Positions 8,780 through 56,190 of a DNA stretch of 64,000 bases are shown piece by piece (position 1 is the stretch's first letter; every line of letters begins with the position of its first letter). Location: positions 83,195 to 147,194 of the forward strand of contig JBBTTA010000002.1 of NCBI GenBank assembly GCA_038064475.1. Direction: 5' to 3'. The stretch comes from Patescibacteria group bacterium. GTDB lineage: Bacteria; Patescibacteriota; Minisyncoccia; Phycocordibacterales; EsbW-18. The position numbers and the translations under genes were made by a program. The notes under the pieces were generated by a model that was not told the origin of the DNA, did not search any database, and saw only the letters and a program-made list of their open reading frames with translations.

Positions 8780-8869
8780 AAATTGACATTTTGGACGGGA
8801 CGAGAAGGCCGGAGTCTACCGTAGGTAGACGAGGCGGGGTCGCGAACACTTAACGAGTCGTCGAGTTTA

Positions 8870-8902
8870 GTGATTCGTGACCGAGTCCCGTCGATTCCGC
8901 CA
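8870..8902 (+). repeat. Junction motif gtgattcgtgacc followed by a 20-nt duplicate of the tRNA-Asp 3' end (gagtcccgtcgattccgcca)
   Basis: Exact direct repeat of 8760-8779, 104 nt downstream. att-like scar. The same junction is seen at 10245 and at 48243 on the minus strand. Confidence 0.6.
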
Positions 8903-9021
8903 AAAAGAGCCGCCTCGCTAAATCGCGAGGCGGCTTCTGCTTTTCCTATTTTTATTGTAGAATGCGACAGCGCTGTTGTATAAGGTATACGTCAGCGCTT
9001 CGGACTTACATGACCAGTCTT

Positions 9022-9271: not shown

Positions 9272-9345
9272 GCTGACGTAGCTCAGTTGGTTAGAGCGAG
9301 GGACTCATAAGCCCTAGGTCGCTGGTTCGATTCCAGCCGTCAGCA
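9272..9345 (+). tRNA. tRNA-Met (anticodon CAU; elongator Met or Ile2-lysidine type)
   Basis: gctgacg/cgtcagc acceptor with a G1-C72 pair. Loop CUCAUAA. T-arm gctggttcgattccagc. Confidence 0.8.
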
Positions 9346-9565
9346 CAAAATTTTTAGGCTGGAATCGAACCCGAGGGAATAAGACATGGGCTGGCGTAAT
9401 GACGCAAGACCGGCGTGCGACAACGTGAAGTTGGATCGCGAAGCTTTCAGTAAGAAAGTACTCGTGACCGAGGAAACCGTAGTTTTCCCTTGCCGACAGG
9501 CAGGGCGCACTCGCAAGTCTATATAAAAACAAATATCTCACTTACCCGTTAAATAAAAAAGAGGC

Positions 9566-10038: not shown

Positions 10039-10110
10039 AGCGGGGTAGAGCAGTAGTAGCTCGCAAGGCTCATAACCTTGAGGTCGCAGGTGCAATTCCT
10101 GCCCCCGCAA
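10039..10110 (+). tRNA. tRNA-Met, CAU anticodon, 1:72 A:A mismatch (possible initiator type)
   Basis: Acceptor agcgggg/ccccgca, D-arm gagcagtagtagctc, loop CUCAUAA, T-arm gcaggtgcaattcctgc. Confidence 0.75.
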
Positions 10111-10244
10111 CAATCGTTCGCCTAGTCCTATTGAAACGCACGGATAAAATCCTACTGGATTTTTCCTCGTACTCGCGCCGTCGCGCTCGCAAGTCGTTTC
10201 AAGAGGATAAGCTCACTTACACGTTCAATTCAAAGAAAATAACA

Positions 10245-10277
10245 GTGATTCGTGACCAAATTCCTGCCCCCGCAACA
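10245..10277 (+). repeat. Junction gtgattcgtgacc followed by a duplicate of the tRNA-Met(10039) 3' end (aattcctgcccccgcaaca)
   Basis: 19-nt direct repeat of 10092-10110, about 150 nt downstream. Followed by terminator cgcccccaagggcg. Confidence 0.6.
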
Positions 10278-10312
10278 AGATACAAAAAAAACGCCCCCAA
10301 GGGCGTTTTTTG

Positions 10313-20139: not shown

Positions 20140-20345
20140 CGGATAAAGGTTCTGTGGAACCTGTGTTAGCTCCTCGGCTCGGAGGTATAAAAGAGTACTT
20201 TTATACCTCTCTCGCTCTACGTCGCTAATAAAATCCTACTGGATTTTTCCTCGTACTCGTGCCGCCGCACTCGCAAGTCTTTATAAAAACAAATATCTCG
20301 TTTACCCGTTAATACAAACAGGTTGACAAACAACCTGTTTTTTGG
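20140..20345 (+). repeat. Intergenic repeat element (gcacggataaa ... aaaatcctactggatttttcctcgtactcg..ctcgcaagtc ... ttacccgttaa plus terminator), copy 3
   Basis: Shares 40-60-nt blocks with 10128-10200 and 9505-9560. Ends with hairpin aaacaggttgacaaacaacctgttt. Confidence 0.5.
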
Positions 20346-46459: not shown

Positions 46460-46483
46460 AATATAGCAAAAGAGAACACCGGC

Positions 46484-46517
46484 ATTCGATATATCGAATG
46501 CCGGTGTTCTTGCTTCT
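46484..46517. terminator. Terminator hairpin aacaccggcattcgatatatcgaatgccggtgtt; a second palindrome follows at 46548-46590
   Basis: Perfect inverted repeats after tyrS. Followed by ttgattcgtgacc (46586-46598) and cagaaaa-type heptamer repeats. Confidence 0.6.
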
Positions 46518-46668
46518 TGAGGTGTGTATAAAAAAATCCCCTCCCGACACATTCTATCGTTCTATAGAACGATAGAATGTGTCGGTATTCTTGATTCGTG
46601 ACCTGCCTGACGAACAGGTGGGTCCTTACTTCTGTTTTCTATTTTCTGTTTTCTGTTCTCTCAATTTC

Positions 46669-47536: not shown

Positions 47537-48127
47537 TTAGTAGTTGAACTCACTGAATGTGATGTTTGTAGGAACGACAAACACTGACGCGTCTGCGTCC
47601 CACGAATCACAATCATACTCAAAATCTGCCAATACATCTCCTGTTGCAACGTCTGGTGTGCCACCTTGTGCTTCCACTTCTGCACGCGCATTTGCTGCTG
47701 TCGTTTGTGCTTCAGCAACACTTATTTTTGATCCGAATGGCACCATGTCTGTCCACGAGTACACATACGTACCATCACTAATCATGTGCGCCGTGTACGC
47801 AACACCACTCGCACTTCCCGATACTGTGCTTGAGAACTTTCCATCTGATGTGTAAATCGTTCCTTCTCCTGTGTAATTGTCTGCCTCAACTTCCCATGTA
47901 CATACACGGTCTCCGCCGCGTCCTGCGAGGTCAAAAACATTTCCTGAAAATTGTGAGTCACCACCTGCATTGTCTGAATCATCCGATGAATCACTTGTGT
48001 CACTACCCTTTCGTGCCGCAACTCCCCATGCAATACCTCCGATGAGAAGTACCGCAACAATACCCATAATGATTTTTGATGAGCCTGTTGCGGCTGTTGT
48101 TTCTGTTGTTACTGGATCCATACACAA
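47537..48127 (-). CDS. Hypothetical membrane-anchored protein
   Basis: N-terminal TM. Asp/Ser-rich linker. Confidence 0.4.
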
Positions 48128-48477
48128 AAAATACCCTTACTTATAAACTAATAAAAAGTATAGCATTTGGCTTTTATGCCACAGACAAAGAGTGACTATT
48201 CGGTGGATTCCAAAAAATATCTTGGCGGAGACGGTGGGATTCGGTCACGAGTTACTAAGTCGCTTCGCTCCTAAGTACTCTCGACCCCGCCTCGGCTTCG
48301 CCTGCGGCCTTCGAATCCCCTCGTCAATATCCATTAGACGCTCCACGTCGGAGTGCCACAAGGCACTCCTCGTGAATCGTTGCGGTGTAGTCGGGTTAAG
48401 TACCCAGTGGTGCAAACCCCGTAAGGGTATTCTAGCACCTTTGGCTCGGGTGGATTGAGGTACTTGGGTCGCTGTCT

Positions 48478-48801
48478 TTATTCCCAAACTTCCAAAGGAT
48501 AAAGGTCGTAGCCTATTTCCTCATACGGGTGCATCTGTTTTATTGCGGCAATTACGTTTCCTACAACTCGTGAGTTTAAGGTGACTTCAATTCGTTCTTC
48601 CTCAACTGAAGTATGTATCCCAACCTCACCAATGTGAGGATTTGCACCTTGTTCTGATTTAAACCGTCCTACTCCCTTTAAACTAAAACTGCAGTGTGAA
48701 TAGTTTCCTATCCTTCCTCCCCCAGCTCCGCCAATGGCAGCTCGAATCTGATCTGCATTCTCTGTAGGAACATACACAACTAATTTATAAAACTTTGGCA
48801 T
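48478..48801 (-). CDS. Small hypothetical protein (PII/CutA-like fold suspected; ...HPYEE motif)
   Basis: 107 aa; family not firmly recognised. Confidence 0.45.
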   Translation of the reverse strand: MPKFYKLVVYVPTENADQIRAAIGGAGGGRIGNYSHCSFSLKGVGRFKSEQGANPHIGEVGIHTSVEEERIEVTLNSRVVGNVIAAIKQMHPYEEIGYDLYPLEVWE

Positions 48802-48960
48802 ACTTTAGTCACTGATTAAGGCATTCAGAATGAATAATTGGTGTTGTTTTCTCTGTACAAAACCTAGTATACAACATACAAAAATGGTGACCCCCGTCAG
48901 GAGCCACCAAATGTCTTCAAACAGAGAAGCATAAACCCTTGTACTCTTTGATGCCCACCA

Positions 48961-49878
48961 CTACGCACCCGTGACCGAATAAATGCCACCTCTCTTAGCC
49001 ATGCCGAGGCCAATACGGACGAGGTCATCCTCGGAAAAGAGAGAACTAAGAGCGTCCTCCACCGACGCCTCGATGAGTGAGCTGCCAACCAGGTTCTGGC
49101 CGGCACGCTTGTCTCGGAAAGACCCATCCGGTCCGATCACGAGATATGACTCGTGGAGATCTTCCTCGGTCTCGGGAGCGAGAACAGTCTCTTTGCAACC
49201 CGAGAGACCTTGGCGGACACGATCGACGTACGCGTCAAACTGTTGACGGGATATTGCTAACCCGTCGTACGTTCCCTCATTCTCGCCCTCCACCCGAGTT
49301 ACCTGAAAAATCTTGACCCGATTTGGATGGATGAGCAGCAACCCGGGCGTGGGATCCTCGTGTGCGTTTTGGGACGTAACCACCATGTTCAACTTGACAT
49401 AAATCTTGTGTCCGAAAGATTTGGCTATCTCTCGGATCATGGCGATGCGGTCCACAACCATCTGCGGAACATCTGGATCATTGTCACGCCCGAGGTCGTG
49501 CTGAACCTTCCGATCGAAGCTATCAAGCGATATCGCGATGATGTTCAACCACCGCAGATACTGCGCGCACCATTCTCGAGTGATCAGCTTCCCATTTGTT
49601 ACAAGCGAAGTGATGAGTCCCGCCTCAGACGTCGCCTCAATCAGACTACCAAGCCCTTGAAACAATAAGGGCTCCCCACCTGCGAAGTTGATTTTTCCTA
49701 CTCCGGCGACGGTGAGTTTTTGGATGATTAACTTCCATGCAGTGATGGGGAGGTCTTTAATTTCCCTGTAAACCGCGAAACAATACCCGCAGTGGAAATT
49801 ACAGTGTCTGGTGATATGGAGATTCACGGTCAGGCCCTGTAACGTTGAAATTCTACCAATGCTCTTTTGACCCTCCAT
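48961..49878 (-). CDS. Viperin-like radical SAM enzyme (prokaryotic viperin, pVip candidate)
   Basis: CNFHCGYCF radical-SAM triad. Blocks LHITRHCNFHCGYCF, KINFAGGEPLL, LNIIAISLDSFD, HPNRVKIFQVTRVEGEN, SYLVIGPDGSF and MAKRGGIY align with RSAD2/viperin sequence recalled from memory. Confidence 0.75.
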   Translation of the reverse strand: MEGQKSIGRISTLQGLTVNLHITRHCNFHCGYCFAVYREIKDLPITAWKLIIQKLTVAGVGKINFAGGEPLLFQGLGSLIEATSEAGLITSLVTNGKLITREWCAQYLRWLNIIAISLDSFDRKVQHDLGRDNDPDVPQMVVDRIAMIREIAKSFGHKIYVKLNMVVTSQNAHEDPTPGLLLIHPNRVKIFQVTRVEGENEGTYDGLAISRQQFDAYVDRVRQGLSGCKETVLAPETEEDLHESYLVIGPDGSFRDKRAGQNLVGSSLIEASVEDALSSLFSEDDLVRIGLGMAKRGGIYSVTGA

Positions 49879-50172
49879 GTTGTTTCTCCTTTGTGGTCAG
49901 TTTGATTCTTTGTTGTAAAAGAACCACCGTATTTGTGGGTGAATATACGGAAATCTAAAAGTTAGATTATAGTAAAATCTACATCTTGTCAAATGATTGC
50001 TGACTCCATAAACCCCTACCTACAGGGCCGCCGGGGTTATGTGCAACAAAATGGATATTCAGGTCACTCCGACTAGTGTATAGACACAACACACAAAACA
50101 AATATCTTCCCCGCCTTCGCTCGTCTTCAGCGGACTGCGTCACGCCGAAGCCGAGCTACTACGAGGCGAAGG

Positions 50173-50257
50173 CGGAGACGGTGGGATTCGAACCCACGAA
50201 GGCTTTCACCTTACCTCCTTAGCAAGGAGGCACATTCGACCACTCTGACACGTCTCC
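50173..50257 (-). tRNA. tRNA-Ser (anticodon GCU), long variable arm
   Basis: ggagacg acceptor. Loop UUGCUAA. Variable arm taaggtgaaagccttc. T-arm gtgggttcgaatcccac. Confidence 0.85.
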
Positions 50258-50364
50258 AATAAAAGCCAGATTAGCATATTTGAGCTCCTTTTTCTATTTT
50301 ATTGACTTGCTATAGCGAAACTGTATAATTCGGTCAGAAGTAAATCCCTAAGGAGAGGTCGCAC

Positions 50365-50919
50365 ATGGAAAAAGAACAGGAACTCAGTCCAGGACGTGCT
50401 GTTTTTCAGGTGGTGGCAACCCTTGGTCTCATTGGCTTTTTTGGTTGGTGGCTCTTCGGTTCAATCTCAGCAGCCAAAAAGGAAGGCGCGCGCTACAGCA
50501 ATACGATCTACACAAGGACCGGAGTAGCGGTGGCAGATGCGCGTGTGACAGTCACGACCATCGGAAGAACGGCTGATCCGGCCGGAAATGCAATCGGCGG
50601 AGCTCTGACGGCAAAGATGCTCGGTCTTCCCGGAACCCTCGGGGCGATTGCTGGAGCCTCGAGCGCTTCGAATGTCCCCGCGATCCAAGGCAGGATTACT
50701 GCCTGTGTGTTCTTTCTGAAGATTGAAGGAGAAGGGACCTTCCGATTCATGCCCAATTCCATGTTCGACGGCGAAGAAGGTCTGAACTGGTGCTCGCTGG
50801 TGCGAGCTGGTGATCAATTCCACATCGAGATCACCAAACGGTTCAGAGATGGGAAAGAGATACTCGAAGATCTCCAAGTCTTTGGGCCCCGAGGCCTCGA
50901 GGGGCACCCTATCCCCTGA
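50365..50919 (+). CDS. Hypothetical membrane protein in a GC-rich (~56%) segment next to tRNA-Ser
   Basis: 184 aa, N-terminal TM. Terminator gcggccgtcatagaaatctatgccggccgc at 50929-50958. Confidence 0.45.
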   Translation: MEKEQELSPGRAVFQVVATLGLIGFFGWWLFGSISAAKKEGARYSNTIYTRTGVAVADARVTVTTIGRTADPAGNAIGGALTAKMLGLPGTLGAIAGASSASNVPAIQGRITACVFFLKIEGEGTFRFMPNSMFDGEEGLNWCSLVRAGDQFHIEITKRFRDGKEILEDLQVFGPRGLEGHPIP

Positions 50920-52608: not shown

Positions 52609-55600
52609 CTAAAGAAGTTTGAAAGTGAGTGGCTCACTTCCTGCATCGCCAACAGCGATGGTCATATCAGAAAGGTTTGTTGCTGCACAAATCTGATCTT
52701 TGTATTCTTCTGCAAGTGCAGTTGTTTCTTGTATTGCTGTCATGACTACATGCACCTTGTCTGATGGTGTGAGATTTGTTGTCTTTCGAAAGTCTTGAAG
52801 TGCTCGGATAAGGTCACGGAGGTCTCCCTCTTTCTTAAGCCCAGGTGTTATGTGTGTATCAAGTTCAACTTCCCAACCTGTACCGTCAGTAAATGCAATT
52901 TCTTTTACGTTTACTTCGTCTTTAATGATATTGAGGATGTCATCTATCTTTCTGATTTCTGATTTTGGATTGCGAATAGTGAGTCTCTGTAATGGCTGAC
53001 GAATCTTTACGCCTGCATTCATACGCGCTTCAAGTGCAAGAGAGACCGTACGGCGTGCTTCTGCCATGTGTTCAAGAAGATCCGCATCAACCTTCTTTGC
53101 TTCCGGCCACGCTTCAAGATGCACACTTTCAAGCGGTCCGTGCATATTTTCGTACAGTTCTTCAGCAAAGAATGGCGTCATTGGTGCCATGAGTTTTGAA
53201 AGCTCGAGAACTACGTATCGTGTTGTCGAGAGCGCAAAGAGTTTGTCTTCACCCTCATCTTTGAAGCGATCCCGGGATCGTCGGACGTACCATGTTGAAA
53301 GATCATTAATGAAGTCGCGGATATCGCGAGCAGGCTCATATGTTCGATAGTTTTCGAAATGCTCCGTCGTTGATGTTATAAGTTCGTTTAAACGCGCGAG
53401 AATCCACTTGTCCAATACATTTTTGCTTTTCTCATGACTTATGACTTGTGACTCATGACTTGCATCATGTGCATACAACTGATAAAACTTCACGACGTTG
53501 CGAAGAACGGTAAATACTTTCTTCACACCTTCATCAACAGTACGCTCATCGAAATTCTTTGAGTCCCCTGGCTGGTTCACCGCAAACATCCAAAAACGCA
53601 ACGCATCGACACCATATTTTGAAATCATCTCCCATGGATTCACCACATTACCTAGTGATTTCGACATTTTTTTACCTTCTGCATCGAGGATGTGCGTCAA
53701 ACAAATGACGTTCTCAAATGCCCGACCACGGCCCATCAACACACCAACGGCGTGCAAGGTGTAGAACCAGCCGCGTGTTTGATCGATTCCTTCGCAAATA
53801 TAGTCTGCGGGATAGCCTTCTTTCTCAACCCATTTTTTGTTTTCAAATGGATAGTGATCTTGTGCGAACGGCATCGAACCAGAGTCGAGCCATGCGTCCA
53901 ATACTTCAGGTGTACGCTTCATATACATAGAACATTTTGGACAGCCGACAACATACTCGTCGATGTATGGCTTGTGGAGGTCGAGTTCAAATTTCTCATT
54001 GTGCGGCAGAGGAATAAATGGAAGTTCGTGCACCTCGGCTGTTTCTTTAAACATTTTTATGTCTTTCACAATCGTCGTTGCTGTCGCCTGTTCTGATGCA
54101 GCAAAAAGCATTTGTGCGGGTGCGCCGTGCGTCACGATGAGAATATTCTTACCATCGTACATATCTTCAGTTTCGTAGAGAAATTCCGTCACACGACGTT
54201 TAATGTCTTCGTGACTCTCCCCTCCTTCTGGACGCTTGGTGAACCAGTCACCGTCAGTGAAAAACATCGCGAGTTCGTGGAATGTCCTGCCATCAAGTTT
54301 TCCGAGTTTTAATTCACCTAAACGATCATCAAAAATAATCTGGTCTTCTTTGAGTCCATGTTCTTGTGCAATGATTTCCGCAGTTTCTGTCGTGCGTCCG
54401 TATGGTGATGCAAGGATAAGATCAATTTTTTCAATTTTTTTCGCAGCATGTACGACTTGCCTCTTCCCTTCCTCAGTCAACACATCAAATTTACTTCCTT
54501 TTTTTGATGAAGCGATGTTCTCGGCATTTGAAAGTGCTTCGCCATGACGCATGACGGTGTACGCATTTGTTGTGCCTTGTGCGAGTGCTGTCAAATCTGC
54601 AATAGAACCAACAACTTCACGATGCTTGCAGTGCTCACACGTCCAGACCGGCAAGGGTGTTCCCCAATAGCGATCACGTGACACCGCCCAATCTTTTACT
54701 TCACGAAGCCATTCTCCAAAACGTCCACCACGAATGTGTTCGGGTACCCAATTGATTTTCTCGTTTTCTTTGACGAGTGTGTCACGCAACTGTGACATAC
54801 CGATGTACCACGACGTACGTGCATAATAAATAAGTGGTGTTTTACAGCGCCAACAGAATGGATATGTGTGTGCGTGGCTCTCTTTTTTGAAGAAAAAGCC
54901 TTTATCCTGAAGGTATTTAAGGACAACAATAGCTGTTGCCAAACCATTATCTTCTTTATCTTTAACGGGCAGACCTTCAAGCTCTCCCGTGCCCTTGATA
55001 AAATGTCCTGTCTCGTCGACAAGATGCACTTTTGGCAAACCAATCTCCGTTCCCAGCACAAAGTCGTCCTGACCGTACATAACTGCAGTGTGTACGATTC
55101 CTGTTCCATCTGTCGTTGTGACAAAATCTGCTGCATATACTTTGTATGCTTTTTCGAGTTTTGGTTTTTCAGAGTCAGGGGCAATGTTATTTAAATATGG
55201 GAACAGTGGCTCATACGAAAGTCCGACGAGCTCTTTTCCTTTAATCGTGCGTCGTGTAGTCTGACCCTCGACCACACTCTTAGACACGTTATCTGCATAC
55301 TGTGACAAAATCTTGTCTCGAAGATCTCTTGCGAAAATAATAGTTTCTTTCAAATGTCGCTCTGTTTCAGGTGCGGAATCTACTTTTTGAGAAAGTTCCT
55401 CGATGTCATATTCGATATCTTCCCCAACAGCGAGCGCAACATTACCAGGAAGTGTCCATGGAGTAGTAGTCCAAGCTAAAAAATACACATTTTCTGCGTC
55501 CTGTCCGCATAGTTTCCGCGTTGATTCCGCATCTAATTTAAACTTCACATAGACCGAAAGATCTTTGATGTCTTGATATCCTTGCGCAATCTCATGACTC

Positions 55601-56190
55601 GAAAGCGCTGTCCCACAACGAGGACACCACGGCAATACTTTGTAGTCTTGGTACAAAAGTTTTTGCCTATCGACTTCTTTGATGACGTTCCAAACTGATT
55701 CAATATATGACGGATAGTATGTCACGTATGCGTCATCGAGATTAACCCAATACCCCATACGTTCCGTAAACGCACGCCACTCATTCATGTACTTCCACAC
55801 ACTCTCTTTACACTTCTCATTGAACGCAGCAATACCGTACTCTTCAATTTCTTTTTTCGATTTCAAACCAAGTATCTTTTCAGTTTCAATTTCTACGGGT
55901 AATCCGTGTGTGTCCCAACCCCCTTTGCGACGCACGTGAAAACCGCGCATTGTTTTATATCGCGGAATAACGTCTTTGAATGCACGAGAAATGAGGTGGT
56001 GAATCCCCGGACGACCGTTTGCTGTAGGTGGCCCTTCGTAAAAAATGAATTCTCCTTCTGGTGACTTCTTCGCGAGCGTTTTCGCGAAGATGTTGCGCTC
56101 ACGCCACTTTTGAAGCTGCGCATCTTCTTTTTGAGCATTTTCACCCGGATTGTACTCGCTCTCAAATGCCATAATACGCCAGTATAGCAC
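52609..56190 (-). CDS. ileS: Isoleucyl-tRNA synthetase (type 2) with an inserted PGAM-like histidine-phosphatase domain
   Basis: HIGH-like GIHHL and KMSKS. Editing domain. Insertion at about aa 541-715 (nt ~54046-54570) with RHGE...LIVTHG motifs. 1193 aa. Confidence 0.85.
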   Translation of the reverse strand: MLYWRIMAFESEYNPGENAQKEDAQLQKWRERNIFAKTLAKKSPEGEFIFYEGPPTANGRPGIHHLISRAFKDVIPRYKTMRGFHVRRKGGWDTHGLPVEIETEKILGLKSKKEIEEYGIAAFNEKCKESVWKYMNEWRAFTERMGYWVNLDDAYVTYYPSYIESVWNVIKEVDRQKLLYQDYKVLPWCPRCGTALSSHEIAQGYQDIKDLSVYVKFKLDAESTRKLCGQDAENVYFLAWTTTPWTLPGNVALAVGEDIEYDIEELSQKVDSAPETERHLKETIIFARDLRDKILSQYADNVSKSVVEGQTTRRTIKGKELVGLSYEPLFPYLNNIAPDSEKPKLEKAYKVYAADFVTTTDGTGIVHTAVMYGQDDFVLGTEIGLPKVHLVDETGHFIKGTGELEGLPVKDKEDNGLATAIVVLKYLQDKGFFFKKESHAHTYPFCWRCKTPLIYYARTSWYIGMSQLRDTLVKENEKINWVPEHIRGGRFGEWLREVKDWAVSRDRYWGTPLPVWTCEHCKHREVVGSIADLTALAQGTTNAYTVMRHGEALSNAENIASSKKGSKFDVLTEEGKRQVVHAAKKIEKIDLILASPYGRTTETAEIIAQEHGLKEDQIIFDDRLGELKLGKLDGRTFHELAMFFTDGDWFTKRPEGGESHEDIKRRVTEFLYETEDMYDGKNILIVTHGAPAQMLFAASEQATATTIVKDIKMFKETAEVHELPFIPLPHNEKFELDLHKPYIDEYVVGCPKCSMYMKRTPEVLDAWLDSGSMPFAQDHYPFENKKWVEKEGYPADYICEGIDQTRGWFYTLHAVGVLMGRGRAFENVICLTHILDAEGKKMSKSLGNVVNPWEMISKYGVDALRFWMFAVNQPGDSKNFDERTVDEGVKKVFTVLRNVVKFYQLYAHDASHESQVISHEKSKNVLDKWILARLNELITSTTEHFENYRTYEPARDIRDFINDLSTWYVRRSRDRFKDEGEDKLFALSTTRYVVLELSKLMAPMTPFFAEELYENMHGPLESVHLEAWPEAKKVDADLLEHMAEARRTVSLALEARMNAGVKIRQPLQRLTIRNPKSEIRKIDDILNIIKDEVNVKEIAFTDGTGWEVELDTHITPGLKKEGDLRDLIRALQDFRKTTNLTPSDKVHVVMTAIQETTALAEEYKDQICAATNLSDMTIAVGDAGSEPLTFKLL

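What the first reader, a model, noticed from the sequence alone, without database searches (positions are those of the whole stretch)
48224..50260. tRNA-Ser-integrated GC-rich island carrying a viperin-like (pVip) radical SAM gene
ORF 48961..49878(-) has the CxxxCxxC radical-SAM triad (CNFHCGYCF). It aligns block by block with animal viperin/RSAD2 as I recall it: VNYHFTRQCNYKCGFCF~VNLHITRHCNFHCGYCF; KINFSGGEPFL~KINFAGGEPLL; LDILAISCDSFD~LNIIAISLDSFD; NPVRWKVFQCLLIEGEN~HPNRVKIFQVTRVEGEN; SYLILDEYMRF~SYLVIGPDGSF. It sits with a 107-aa ORF between intact tRNA-Ser(GCU) and a 20-nt direct repeat of the tRNA 3' end (48224-48243 = 50171-50190). The interval is about 55-57% GC against a background of about 45%. 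This is the structure of an integrated defence islet. Known pVips usually pair with a nucleotide kinase, which is absent here, and no integrase remains. The partner here is an uncharacterised small PII/CutA-like protein. The GC-rich gene 50365..50919 on the other side of the tRNA may belong to the same acquisition.
Basis: partly seen in the sequence, partly recalled or inferred. Interest (0 to 1): 0.85.

Follow-up and report, generated by a model that had tools for sequence, protein, structure and literature searches.

The report
Viperin gene at a tRNA-Ser hotspot
A tiny groundwater bacterium (Patescibacteria) carries a genuine but divergent antiviral viperin gene as acquired cargo just downstream of a tRNA-Ser gene; this is an ordinary kind of defence islet, but the repeat that bounds it belongs to an unexplained family of tRNA-mimicking DNA modules.

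Summary
The observation largely holds. tRNA-Ser(GCU) is at 50171-50257(-). The exact 20-nt repeat 48224-48243 = 50171-50190 is real. ORF 48961-49878(-) is a viperin-family radical SAM enzyme: NCBIfam NF038283 scores 207.5 bits against a cutoff of 180, PADLOC pVip gives 1e-60, mouse viperin 3e-35, and MoaA only 66 bits. NCBI already annotates it as such in a Patescibacteria MAG from Hainich groundwater.

Three details in the finding are wrong:
- The interval is 48.8% GC, not 55-57%. Only the pVip gene (52.4%, GC3 0.61) and a 234-nt spacer are GC-rich.
- The GC-rich 184-aa ORF has GC-rich positional homologues in relatives, so it is native.
- Only about 12% of bacterial viperins have a neighbouring kinase, so lacking one is normal.

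The 107-aa neighbour is a stand-alone YqfO-like (COG3323) PII-like protein. It has host-like composition, an intrinsic terminator separates it from pVip, and its homologues sit in unrelated contexts without viperin. It is not a dedicated partner.

Relatives support acquisition. L027 has no cargo at the syntenic site and L033 carries a different gene there.

The bounding repeat is the end of a ~100-nt structured module. Similar modules follow tRNA-Asp and tRNA-Met in this window and tRNA-Ser in L033. No integrase was found. The verdict is a new member of a known kind, with an unexplained side finding.

The parts
50171..50257 (-). tRNA-Ser(GCU). It is intact. Its 3' 20 nt (50171-50190) is the proximal copy of the direct repeat.
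   Evidence: ARAGORN. Rfam RF00005, 54.9 bits. 100% identical over 86 nt to the tRNA-Ser of relative L027.
49879..50170 (-). 292-nt non-coding stretch between the tRNA 3' end and the pVip start. An AGGAG ribosome-binding site lies 7-8 nt before the ATG.
   Evidence: Sequence read directly. No sigma-70-type promoter was found on this strand. ORFs here have no family hits. Similarity to the distal module is not significant.
48961..49878 (-). pVip: a prokaryotic viperin, a radical-SAM nucleotide dehydratase of 305 aa.
   Evidence: NF038283 scores 207.5 bits against a cutoff of 180. PADLOC pVip 1.3e-60. Mouse viperin 6q2p 2.9e-35. All family-invariant motifs are present in alignment A4. GC3 is 0.61 against about 0.40 for host genes.
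48885..48909 (-). Intrinsic terminator after pVip: an 11-bp stem with 6 GC pairs, followed by TTTTTGT.
   Evidence: Terminator scan.
48478..48801 (-). 107-aa stand-alone YqfO-like (COG3323) PII/CutA-like protein with the HPYE motif. It is a separate transcription unit.
   Evidence: 2gx8_A residues 161-261, E = 6.5e-29. More than 1500 homologues, the best 66-76% identical and from Patescibacteria. Their contexts lack viperin. Family description in PMC8469502. GC3 is 0.31.
48395..48475 (.). Conserved non-coding element directly 3' of the 107-aa gene. It is 84% identical to a non-coding stretch in relative L030 that lies behind an unrelated gene.
   Evidence: blastn against L030 9412-9486, E = 1.6e-15. 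Sequence. No Rfam match.
48224..48325 (-). tRNA-linked module. It has an inverted copy of the tRNA 3' segment (48312-48325), a conserved hairpin core (GAGGCGGGGTCGAGAG...CTCGTGACC) and the distal direct-repeat copy (48224-48243).
   Evidence: 78% identical to the module after tRNA-Asp (A1). Shared core with L033. The consensus fold has 9 compensatory pairs. The RNA fold of 48215-48480(-) has z = -4.5.
47537..48121 (-). Host flank: a 194-aa membrane or secreted protein, 65% identical to its L027 orthologue.
   Evidence: BLASTP 1e-90. Synteny.
50365..50919 (+). Host flank: a 184-aa GC-rich ORF with its own strong promoter (50302-50329). It is a positional homologue of the L027 158-aa and L032 157-aa genes and is not part of the acquisition.
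   Evidence: BLASTP 35% over 55 aa, E = 1e-7. Homologues are GC-rich in their own genomes. Promoter.

Best explanation
ORF 48961-49878(-) encodes a genuine, divergent prokaryotic viperin. It most likely works alone as a single-gene antiviral system. The radical-SAM [4Fe-4S] site (C26/C30/C33) cleaves SAM. The resulting 5'-deoxyadenosyl radical dehydrates a ribonucleoside triphosphate to a 3'-deoxy-3',4'-didehydro-NTP. That product terminates RNA chains made by phage polymerases. This mechanism is inferred from family membership and was not tested here.

The gene is horizontally acquired cargo in a variable-cargo hotspot immediately downstream of tRNA-Ser(GCU) in a groundwater Patescibacteria genome. 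The hotspot is closed distally by a ~100-nt structured module whose last 20 nt repeat the tRNA 3' end. The most likely origin is site-specific recombination at the tRNA T-loop by an integrase that is now lost or acts in trans.

The adjacent 107-aa COG3323 protein is separately transcribed and is probably an unrelated co-resident of the same hotspot, not a pVip partner.
For: Viperin identity:
- NF038283 exceeds its curated cutoff.
- PADLOC pVip models score 1e-57 to 1e-60.
- Nine solved viperin or viperin-like chains match at 1e-28 to 3e-35, against 2e-6 for MoaA.
- The motifs VNxH, CxxxCxxC, GGEP, SxDS, KxN, RxKxxQ, GEN, SY and RGGxY are invariant in A4.
- NCBI names the identical protein 'viperin family antiviral radical SAM protein'.

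Acquisition:
- pVip GC3 is 0.61 against 0.31-0.51 for neighbouring genes. The gene is in the top 0.2% of 918-bp windows for GC.
- The nearest non-self homologue is only 36% identical.
- L027 (IleRS 76% identical) keeps the flanking gene order but has only the tRNA between the two flank genes.
- L033 (IleRS 61%) has tRNA-Ser, a module, a different 289-aa gene and a second module end at the same site.

Repeat: it is exact and non-random. It is present in independent assemblies.

Independence of the 107-aa gene: terminator between the genes, composition, homologue contexts without viperin, and the nearest pVip homologue pairing with a kinase instead.
Against: - No integrase, excisionase or other mobility gene lies in the interval. 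None is within roughly 10 kb either side (window 38961-59878, Pfam listing), and none is next to the other modules.
- No clean empty attB was found. L027 lacks the cargo, but its tRNA is inverted relative to the flanks and it has no module.
- All contigs of this species carry the island, so no polymorphism was seen.
- The repeat-bearing module also occurs with no cargo at tRNA-Asp and tRNA-Met. The repeat may therefore pre-date the pVip insertion rather than result from it.
- The inverted copy of the tRNA segment at the module's 5' end is not explained by a simple integrase model.
- Enzymatic activity, substrate and phage defence are untested. The nucleobase-pocket residues (Lys and Asn at mouse positions C314 and K319) fit none of the described pocket types.
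Confidence: 0.75

Rival explanations
1. A two-gene defence system. pVip and the 107-aa PII-like protein work together, for example with the PII-like protein sensing nucleotides and regulating the viperin in place of the missing kinase.
For: The two genes are adjacent, co-oriented and inside the same repeat-bounded interval. PII/CutA-like proteins are proposed small-molecule binders or signalling proteins (PMC8469502).
Against: - A strong intrinsic terminator lies between the genes.
- There is a 159-nt gap with its own -10-like TATACT, read directly from the sequence and not found by the promoter scan.
- Codon composition is very different, GC3 0.61 against 0.31.
- Homologues at 71-76% identity sit in three unrelated neighbourhoods without viperin.
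- The closest pVip homologue has a kinase, not a COG3323 gene, next to it.
- In L007 the homologue is a single-gene insert bracketed by its own 35-nt repeat.
Confidence: 0.07
2. The tRNA-Ser and module pair is a native unit, as at tRNA-Asp and tRNA-Met2 and in L033. The module is an RNA element transcribed with the tRNA. The pVip, 107-aa gene and conserved element were inserted between tRNA and module by some other route, so the 20-nt repeat is not an integration scar.
For: - Cargo-free modules lie directly after tRNA-Asp and tRNA-Met2, before terminator-like hairpins read from the sequence.
- In L033 the module directly follows tRNA-Ser.
- The module has a conserved fold with compensatory changes, and its 5' inverted copy tracks each tRNA.
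- No third repeat copy lies inside the island.
- No integrase was found.
Against: - L027's tRNA-Ser has no module and tRNA-Glu has none, so the module is dispensable.
- The Met2 module shares only the junction GATTCGTGACC plus the repeat and lacks the core. That looks more like a recombination junction than an RNA gene.
- In L033 the 16-nt CTCGTGACCGAATCCC recurs on the far side of the cargo, as expected for tandem integrations.
- No Rfam family matches.
Confidence: 0.2
3. The radical-SAM protein is a MoaA-like or other non-viperin enzyme, and the resemblance to viperin is superficial.
For: The Pfam hit is only the generic Radical_SAM domain. MoaA models give weak hits of 60-66 bits.
Against: The viperin equivalog model passes its cutoff at 207.5 bits, while MoaA reaches 66 bits against a cutoff of 284. 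PDB viperins match at 1e-35 against 1e-6 for MoaA. Viperin-specific C-terminal motifs (SY, RGGxY) are present.
Confidence: 0.02

Closest known systems
Prokaryotic viperins (pVips; NCBIfam NF038283, PADLOC pVip), the stand-alone type without a kinase
   Same: The radical-SAM core, the GGE motif, the C-terminal extension motifs, the length (about 300 aa) and the single-gene organisation all match. The curated cutoff is passed.
   Different: It is at most 36-39% identical to any other sequence found. It carries Lys and Asn where mouse viperin has C314 and K319, unlike the CTP, UTP, Asn or Asp pockets described. It has a unique ~7-residue insertion before the RGGxY motif, judged from the gap in the other A4 rows. 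The host is a Patescibacteria (CPR) bacterium.
Kinase-associated or kinase-fused pVips (for example P0002 with an operonic dNK/Tmk-like kinase, and the 440-520-aa fusions P0004-P0009)
   Same: These are the closest sequence relatives, at 35-39% identity.
   Different: No kinase gene lies in or near the islet.
tRNA-targeting integrative islands with partial-tRNA repeats, such as tycheposon-seeded islands in Prochlorococcus (bioRxiv 10.1101/2020.12.28.424599)
   Same: - A full tRNA sits at one end and a partial 3' tRNA copy at the other.
- Different cargo occupies the same tRNA in relatives.
- Tandem partial repeats occur (L033).
- Integrase-less remnants are known in that system too.
   Different: No integrase is seen anywhere nearby. 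The distal repeat is embedded in a conserved structured module that also holds an inverted copy of the tRNA segment. The same junction heptamer TCGTGAC is used at three different tRNAs.
Stand-alone YqfO-like domain proteins (COG3323; DUF34/NIF3 subgroup D of Reed et al. 2021, PMC8469502)
   Same: The 107-aa protein aligns over its full length to the PII-like insert of B. cereus YqfO (2gx8) and has the HPYE motif.
   Different: Nothing in that family is known to be linked to viperins or defence. Here it sits in a tRNA-Ser hotspot, and in L007 too.

Membership tests
Viperin / pVip (NF038283) | The profile-HMM score reaches the curated family cutoff and beats other radical-SAM families. | tested here: met
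   207.5 bits against a cutoff of 180. MoaA scores 66 bits against a cutoff of 284. PADLOC pVip 1.3e-60.
Viperin / pVip (NF038283) | CxxxCxxC [4Fe-4S] motif and GGE SAM-binding motif. | tested here: met
   C26, C30, C33 and G67-G68-E69-P70 are invariant in A4.
Viperin / pVip (NF038283) | Viperin-specific substrate-site and C-terminal-extension motifs (VNxH, KxN, RxKxxQ, SY, RGGxY). | tested here: met
   All are invariant or nearly invariant columns in A4 and align to mouse viperin.
Viperin / pVip (NF038283) | A nucleobase-pocket type that predicts the substrate (mouse C314/K319 = CTP; T. virens R257 = UTP; Asn or Asp pockets). | tested here: inconclusive
   The aligned residues are Lys and Asn, which fit none of the described types. 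The loop alignment is uncertain by one or two positions.
Viperin / pVip (NF038283) | Produces ddhNTP and protects against phage. | not testable with these tools
   This needs expression, LC-MS and plaque assays.
pVip plus nucleotide-kinase two-gene system | A nucleotide kinase adjacent to or fused with the viperin. | tested here: not met
   No kinase domain occurs in the ORFs of 46.6-52.6 kb or in the Pfam listing for window 38961-59878.
Integrase-mediated tRNA-integrated genomic island | A direct repeat of the tRNA 3' end bounds the insert. | tested here: met
   A 20-nt exact repeat with 0.01 expected by chance.
Integrase-mediated tRNA-integrated genomic island | An integrase or recombinase gene inside or next to the island. 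| tested here: not met
   None was found in the interval (Pfam, PHROGs and NCBIfam) or in the neighbouring genes.
Integrase-mediated tRNA-integrated genomic island | The insert is absent from the same site in relatives. | tested here: met
   L027 has only the tRNA between the flank orthologues, and L033 has other cargo. Caveat: the L027 tRNA is inverted and there is no within-species empty site.
Integrase-mediated tRNA-integrated genomic island | Atypical composition of the whole insert. | tested here: inconclusive
   pVip (52.4% GC) and the 234-nt spacer (56.4%) are atypical. The 107-aa gene (41.7%) is not. The interval as a whole is 48.8% against 45.5% for the window.
Integrase-mediated tRNA-integrated genomic island | Excision products (a circular junction and a repaired attB) in the population. 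| not testable with these tools
   Raw reads are not available here. Contig ends near both repeats are better explained by sequence shared with other community members.
Stand-alone YqfO-like domain (COG3323) | Full-length homology to the PII-like insert of YqfO, plus the HPYE motif. | tested here: met
   2gx8_A residues 161-261, E = 6.5e-29. HPYE is at residues 91-94 of the ORF. Family definition in PMC8469502.

The most novel reading that the evidence does not exclude
The 20-nt repeat is the tail of a previously undescribed family of ~100-200-nt modules in Paceibacteria-like CPR genomes. Each module sits downstream of a tRNA gene. It carries a direct copy of that tRNA's own T-loop-to-3'-end segment, usually also an inverted copy, and usually a conserved, covarying hairpin that ends in the invariant junction TCGTGAC. 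Cargo genes are found between the tRNA and a module or between two module ends: pVip and the COG3323 gene here, and a 289-aa gene in L033.

The modules could be the recombination sites or guide-like RNAs of an integrase-less or trans-mobilised tRNA-targeting element. That would make this a new way in which defence genes are captured in ultra-small genomes.
Probability: 0.2. Interest if true: 0.7.

Novelty: new member of a known kind. Interest (0 to 1): 0.35.

Why it matters
Patescibacteria have very small genomes and few recognised defence systems, and compact single-gene systems are thought to be favoured in such lineages (PMC12988326). A divergent, kinase-less viperin with an undescribed nucleobase pocket extends the known sequence space of the family. 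It would be a reasonable candidate for testing substrate range.

The more useful lead is structural. The same tRNA-Ser site carries different cargo in related genomes. It is bounded by a recurring module that mimics the tRNA 3' end. If that module proves to be a recombination site or an RNA element, it would explain how gene cassettes move in genomes that seem to lack ordinary mobile elements.

Tried and rejected
- **Empty site within the species.** Exact-protein look-ups of pVip, the 194-aa flank and the 184-aa flank gave 15-18 contigs. All had the same arrangement.
- **Public-collection scans for relatives.** The genome-contig scan with RecO gave one distant hit. The metagenome-contig scans with the 194-aa alignment and with the tRNA-Ser 3' 41-mer gave nothing. 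The viral-contig scans with the module core and with the conserved element gave nothing.
- **Known RNA family for the module or the conserved element.** Rfam E-value searches found none.
- **Integrase remnants in the spacers.** The 80-, 88- and 54-aa ORFs have no PHROGs hits. The genes next to the tRNA-Asp and tRNA-Met modules are RmuC, DUF975, YqeY and similar, not recombinases.
- **A third, degenerate repeat copy inside the island**, which would be a sign of tandem integration. The best local alignment is no better than shuffles.
- **The 292 nt next to the tRNA as a degenerate module half.** The similarity is not significant, p about 0.1-0.5.
- **Contig breaks near both repeats as evidence of excision.** The positions fit k-mers shared with other tRNA-Ser or module copies in the community rather than the predicted excision junctions (inference).
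- **pVip on phages.** There is only a weak partial radical-SAM hit. Plasmid viperins are at most 37% identical.
- **The conserved element as an integron attC.** It was compared by eye with the R''/R' consensus recalled from memory, and the orientation does not fit. This was rejected without further testing.
Full report
**Observation**

ARAGORN and Rfam place an intact tRNA-Ser(GCU) at 50171-50257 on the minus strand. Its last 20 nt, CGAATCCCACCGTCTCCGCC, recur exactly at 48224-48243. These are the only two matches in the 64-kb window at up to 3 mismatches, against 0.01 expected from shuffles.

Between the two copies lie a 305-aa ORF (48961-49878, minus) with CNFHCGYC and a 107-aa ORF (48478-48801, minus). 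The arrangement is not an assembly artefact. ENA and Logan contigs from several samples and assemblers span one or both repeat copies at 99.9-100% identity.

The composition claim is overstated. The repeat-bounded interval is 48.8% GC against 45.5% for the window. The pVip gene is 52.4% (GC3 0.61, top 0.2% of 918-bp windows) and the spacer 48244-48477 is 56.4%. The 107-aa gene is 41.7% (GC3 0.31).

**The radical-SAM gene is a viperin**

- NCBIfam NF038283 ('viperin family antiviral radical SAM protein') scores 207.5 bits against a curated cutoff of 180. The best MoaA model scores 66 bits against 284.
- PADLOC pVip models give 1e-57 to 1e-60.
- Nine solved viperin or viperin-like chains match at 1e-28 to 3e-35, with mouse viperin 6q2p the best. 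MoaA matches at 2e-6.
- In an alignment with mouse viperin and eleven prokaryotic homologues, these motifs are invariant or nearly so: VNxH, C26/C30/C33, GGEP, SxDS, KxN, RxKxxQ, GEN, SY and the C-terminal RGGxY (A4).
- The identical protein is already in NCBI under that name, from a 'Patescibacteria group bacterium' MAG. The source contig is a 158-kb assembly from Hainich groundwater well H41.

The protein is divergent. The nearest non-self sequence among 5.8 billion clusters is 36% identical, and the closest relatives are kinase-adjacent or kinase-fused viperins.

Shomar et al. tie substrate choice to two positions, mouse C314 and K319. At these positions the alignment gives Lys and Asn. This matches none of the described CTP, UTP, Asn or Asp pockets, so the substrate cannot be predicted.

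The same paper reports that only 12% of bacterial viperins have a kinase within three genes. Absence of a kinase is therefore ordinary.

**The 107-aa neighbour**

It aligns over its whole length to the PII-like insert domain of B. cereus YqfO (2gx8 residues 161-261, E = 6.5e-29) and of S. aureus SA1388. It carries the HPYE motif that defines stand-alone YqfO-like COG3323 proteins (PMC8469502).

It is not a dedicated partner:
- An 11-bp-stem intrinsic terminator (48909-48885) follows pVip.
- A 159-nt gap with its own -10-like TATACT precedes the small gene (read from the sequence).
- The two genes differ strongly in codon composition.
- The protein has more than 1500 homologues, the best 66-76% identical and from Patescibacteria.
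- Three such homologues examined sit in three unrelated neighbourhoods, none with a viperin.
- The closest pVip homologue has a dNK/Tmk-like kinase in operon, not a COG3323 gene.

**Is it an insertion?**

Relatives were found through the IleRS gene, which carries a histidine-phosphatase insert.

- **L027** (IleRS 76% identical) keeps the order IleRS, RecO..., HhH-GPD, 158-aa gene, tRNA-Ser, 192-aa gene, MsrB, TyrRS. Between the two flank genes it has only the tRNA, which is 86/86 nt identical to the window's. There is no pVip, no 107-aa gene and no repeat. However, its tRNA is inverted relative to the flanks.
- **L032 and L033** (IleRS 62% and 61%) share the window's tRNA orientation, so L027 is probably the rearranged one.
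- **L033** has, at the same site, tRNA-Ser followed directly by a ~200-nt module. The module ends in a copy of L033's own tRNA 3' end. Then come a 289-aa gene with no family match and a second copy of CTCGTGACCGAATCCC before the 194-aa orthologue.

The gap between tRNA-Ser and the 194-aa gene is therefore a variable-cargo hotspot. The pVip segment is an insertion relative to relatives.

The 184-aa GC-rich ORF on the other side of the tRNA has weak positional homologues in L027 and L032. These are equally GC-rich in their own genomes. It is native and not part of the acquisition.

No integrase or other mobility gene lies in the interval or the surrounding ~20 kb.

**The repeat belongs to a module family**

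The ~100 nt ending in the distal repeat (48325-48224, minus strand) are 78% identical to the sequence that directly follows tRNA-Asp (8793-8905). That sequence ends in a 23-nt exact copy of the tRNA-Asp 3' end.

- tRNA-Met at 10039-10111 is followed, 147 nt downstream, by GATTCGTGACC plus a 20-nt copy of its own 3' end.
- tRNA-Met at 9272-9346 has the 5' part of a module and CTCGTGACCGA, but no 3' copy.
- tRNA-Glu has nothing.

The full modules (Ser and Asp in the window, Ser in L033) share three features. The first is an inverted copy of the local tRNA's T-loop/T-stem/acceptor 3' segment. The second is a core GAGGCGGGGTCG.GA hairpin with compensatory changes. The third is the constant junction TCGTGAC abutting C(G/A)A(A/G)T of the T-loop. 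The minus strand of 48215-48480 folds with z = -4.5.

Rfam has no matching family, and no recombinase is nearby.

A constant element-side junction in the T-loop, plus tandem ends around cargo in L033, fits the attR side of T-loop-type integrative elements. Integrase-less remnants at tRNA hotspots are known from tycheposon islands. Two things are not explained by that model and leave room for an RNA-level or guide-like role. One is the tRNA-tracking inverted copy. The other is the position of the cargo-free modules between a tRNA and a terminator-like hairpin. I leave this open.

**Mechanism**

*Shown:* family membership and intact catalytic motifs; separate terminator; foreign composition of pVip; absence of the cargo in relatives; a non-random tRNA 3' repeat.

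*Inferred from the family:* SAM-dependent dehydration of an NTP to a ddhNTP that terminates phage transcription, acting as a single-gene system.

*Inferred from anatomy:* arrival by site-specific recombination at the tRNA T-loop, with the recombinase lost or supplied in trans.

**Verdict**

This is a real, already annotated, divergent pVip in a small tRNA-Ser hotspot of a CPR bacterium, so it is a new member of a known kind. The 'uncharacterised partner' and 'GC-rich island' parts of the finding do not hold. The tRNA-mimicking module family is the one unexplained feature.

Noticed in passing
window 8784-8905 (+), 10112-10278 (+), 9347-9475 (+): tRNA-Asp and the second tRNA-Met are each followed by a module of about 120-170 nt. 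The module ends in YTCGTGACC plus an exact 20-23-nt copy of that tRNA's own 3' end. Terminator-like hairpins, read from the sequence, follow the modules. The first tRNA-Met has an inverted T-arm copy and CTCGTGACCGA but no 3' copy. The Asp module is 78% identical to the one bounding the pVip islet.
   Followed up: partly
window 48395-48475; L030 9412-9486: An ~80-nt non-coding element (AAGTACCCAGTGG.GCAA.CCC.GTAAGG.TATTCTAGCACCTTTGGCTC...ATTGAGGTACT.GGGTCG) is 84% identical between the window and relative L030. In each genome it lies just 3' of a different gene. There is no Rfam match.
   Followed up: partly
L027 15164-15249 versus window 50171-50257: The tRNA-Ser gene is 100% identical in the two genomes but is inverted relative to the conserved flanking genes in L027. 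L032 and L033 share the window's orientation.
   Followed up: partly
L007 7807-8480: In a distant Patescibacterium, the 111-aa homologue of the 107-aa gene also lies directly after a tRNA-Ser(GCU). It is bracketed by a 35-nt, 89%-identical direct repeat that starts in the last 4 nt of the tRNA. The COG3323 gene therefore looks like recurrent tRNA-Ser cargo.
   Followed up: partly
L033 15590-15605 and 16793-16808: A 16-nt exact repeat, CTCGTGACCGAATCCC, brackets a 289-aa gene of unknown family at the site syntenic to the pVip islet. This suggests tandem insertions.
   Followed up: partly
window 52609-56172 (-): The isoleucyl-tRNA synthetase (1187 aa) carries an inserted histidine-phosphatase (His_Phos_1) domain. 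All 120 best homologues, from Patescibacteria and Paceibacteria-type MAGs, share this architecture.
   Followed up: no
window 46473-46510 and 46544-46585: Two perfect palindromes of 38 and 42 nt lie between the convergent TyrRS and DUF1761 genes. Many Logan contigs end at 46550 or 46556 inside the second one.
   Followed up: no
window 48250-48271 and 50170-50200 (contig ends of L017, L020, L023, L014, L021): Logan contigs repeatedly end just inside the module core and at the tRNA 3' end. The positions fit sharing of a ~39-nt module core and of the tRNA with other sequences in the same samples. This hints that further module copies exist outside the window. It is an inference only.
   Followed up: partly
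window 10144-10195 and 20228-20279; also 9500-9560 and 20265-20310: A repeated non-coding stretch, 52 nt at 94% identity, includes CTCGCAAGTC.TTATAAAAACAAATATCTC..TTACCCGTTAA. It occurs downstream of both tRNA-Met genes and again near 20.2 kb upstream of a gene. It may be a shared promoter or leader.
   Followed up: no
L027 12318-13726: The closest relative has two extra GC-rich genes (230 and 238 aa; GC3 0.57 and 0.75 against about 0.40 for the genome) and a 92-aa ORF between RecO and HhH-GPD. These are absent from the window, so this is another variable spot.
   Followed up: no
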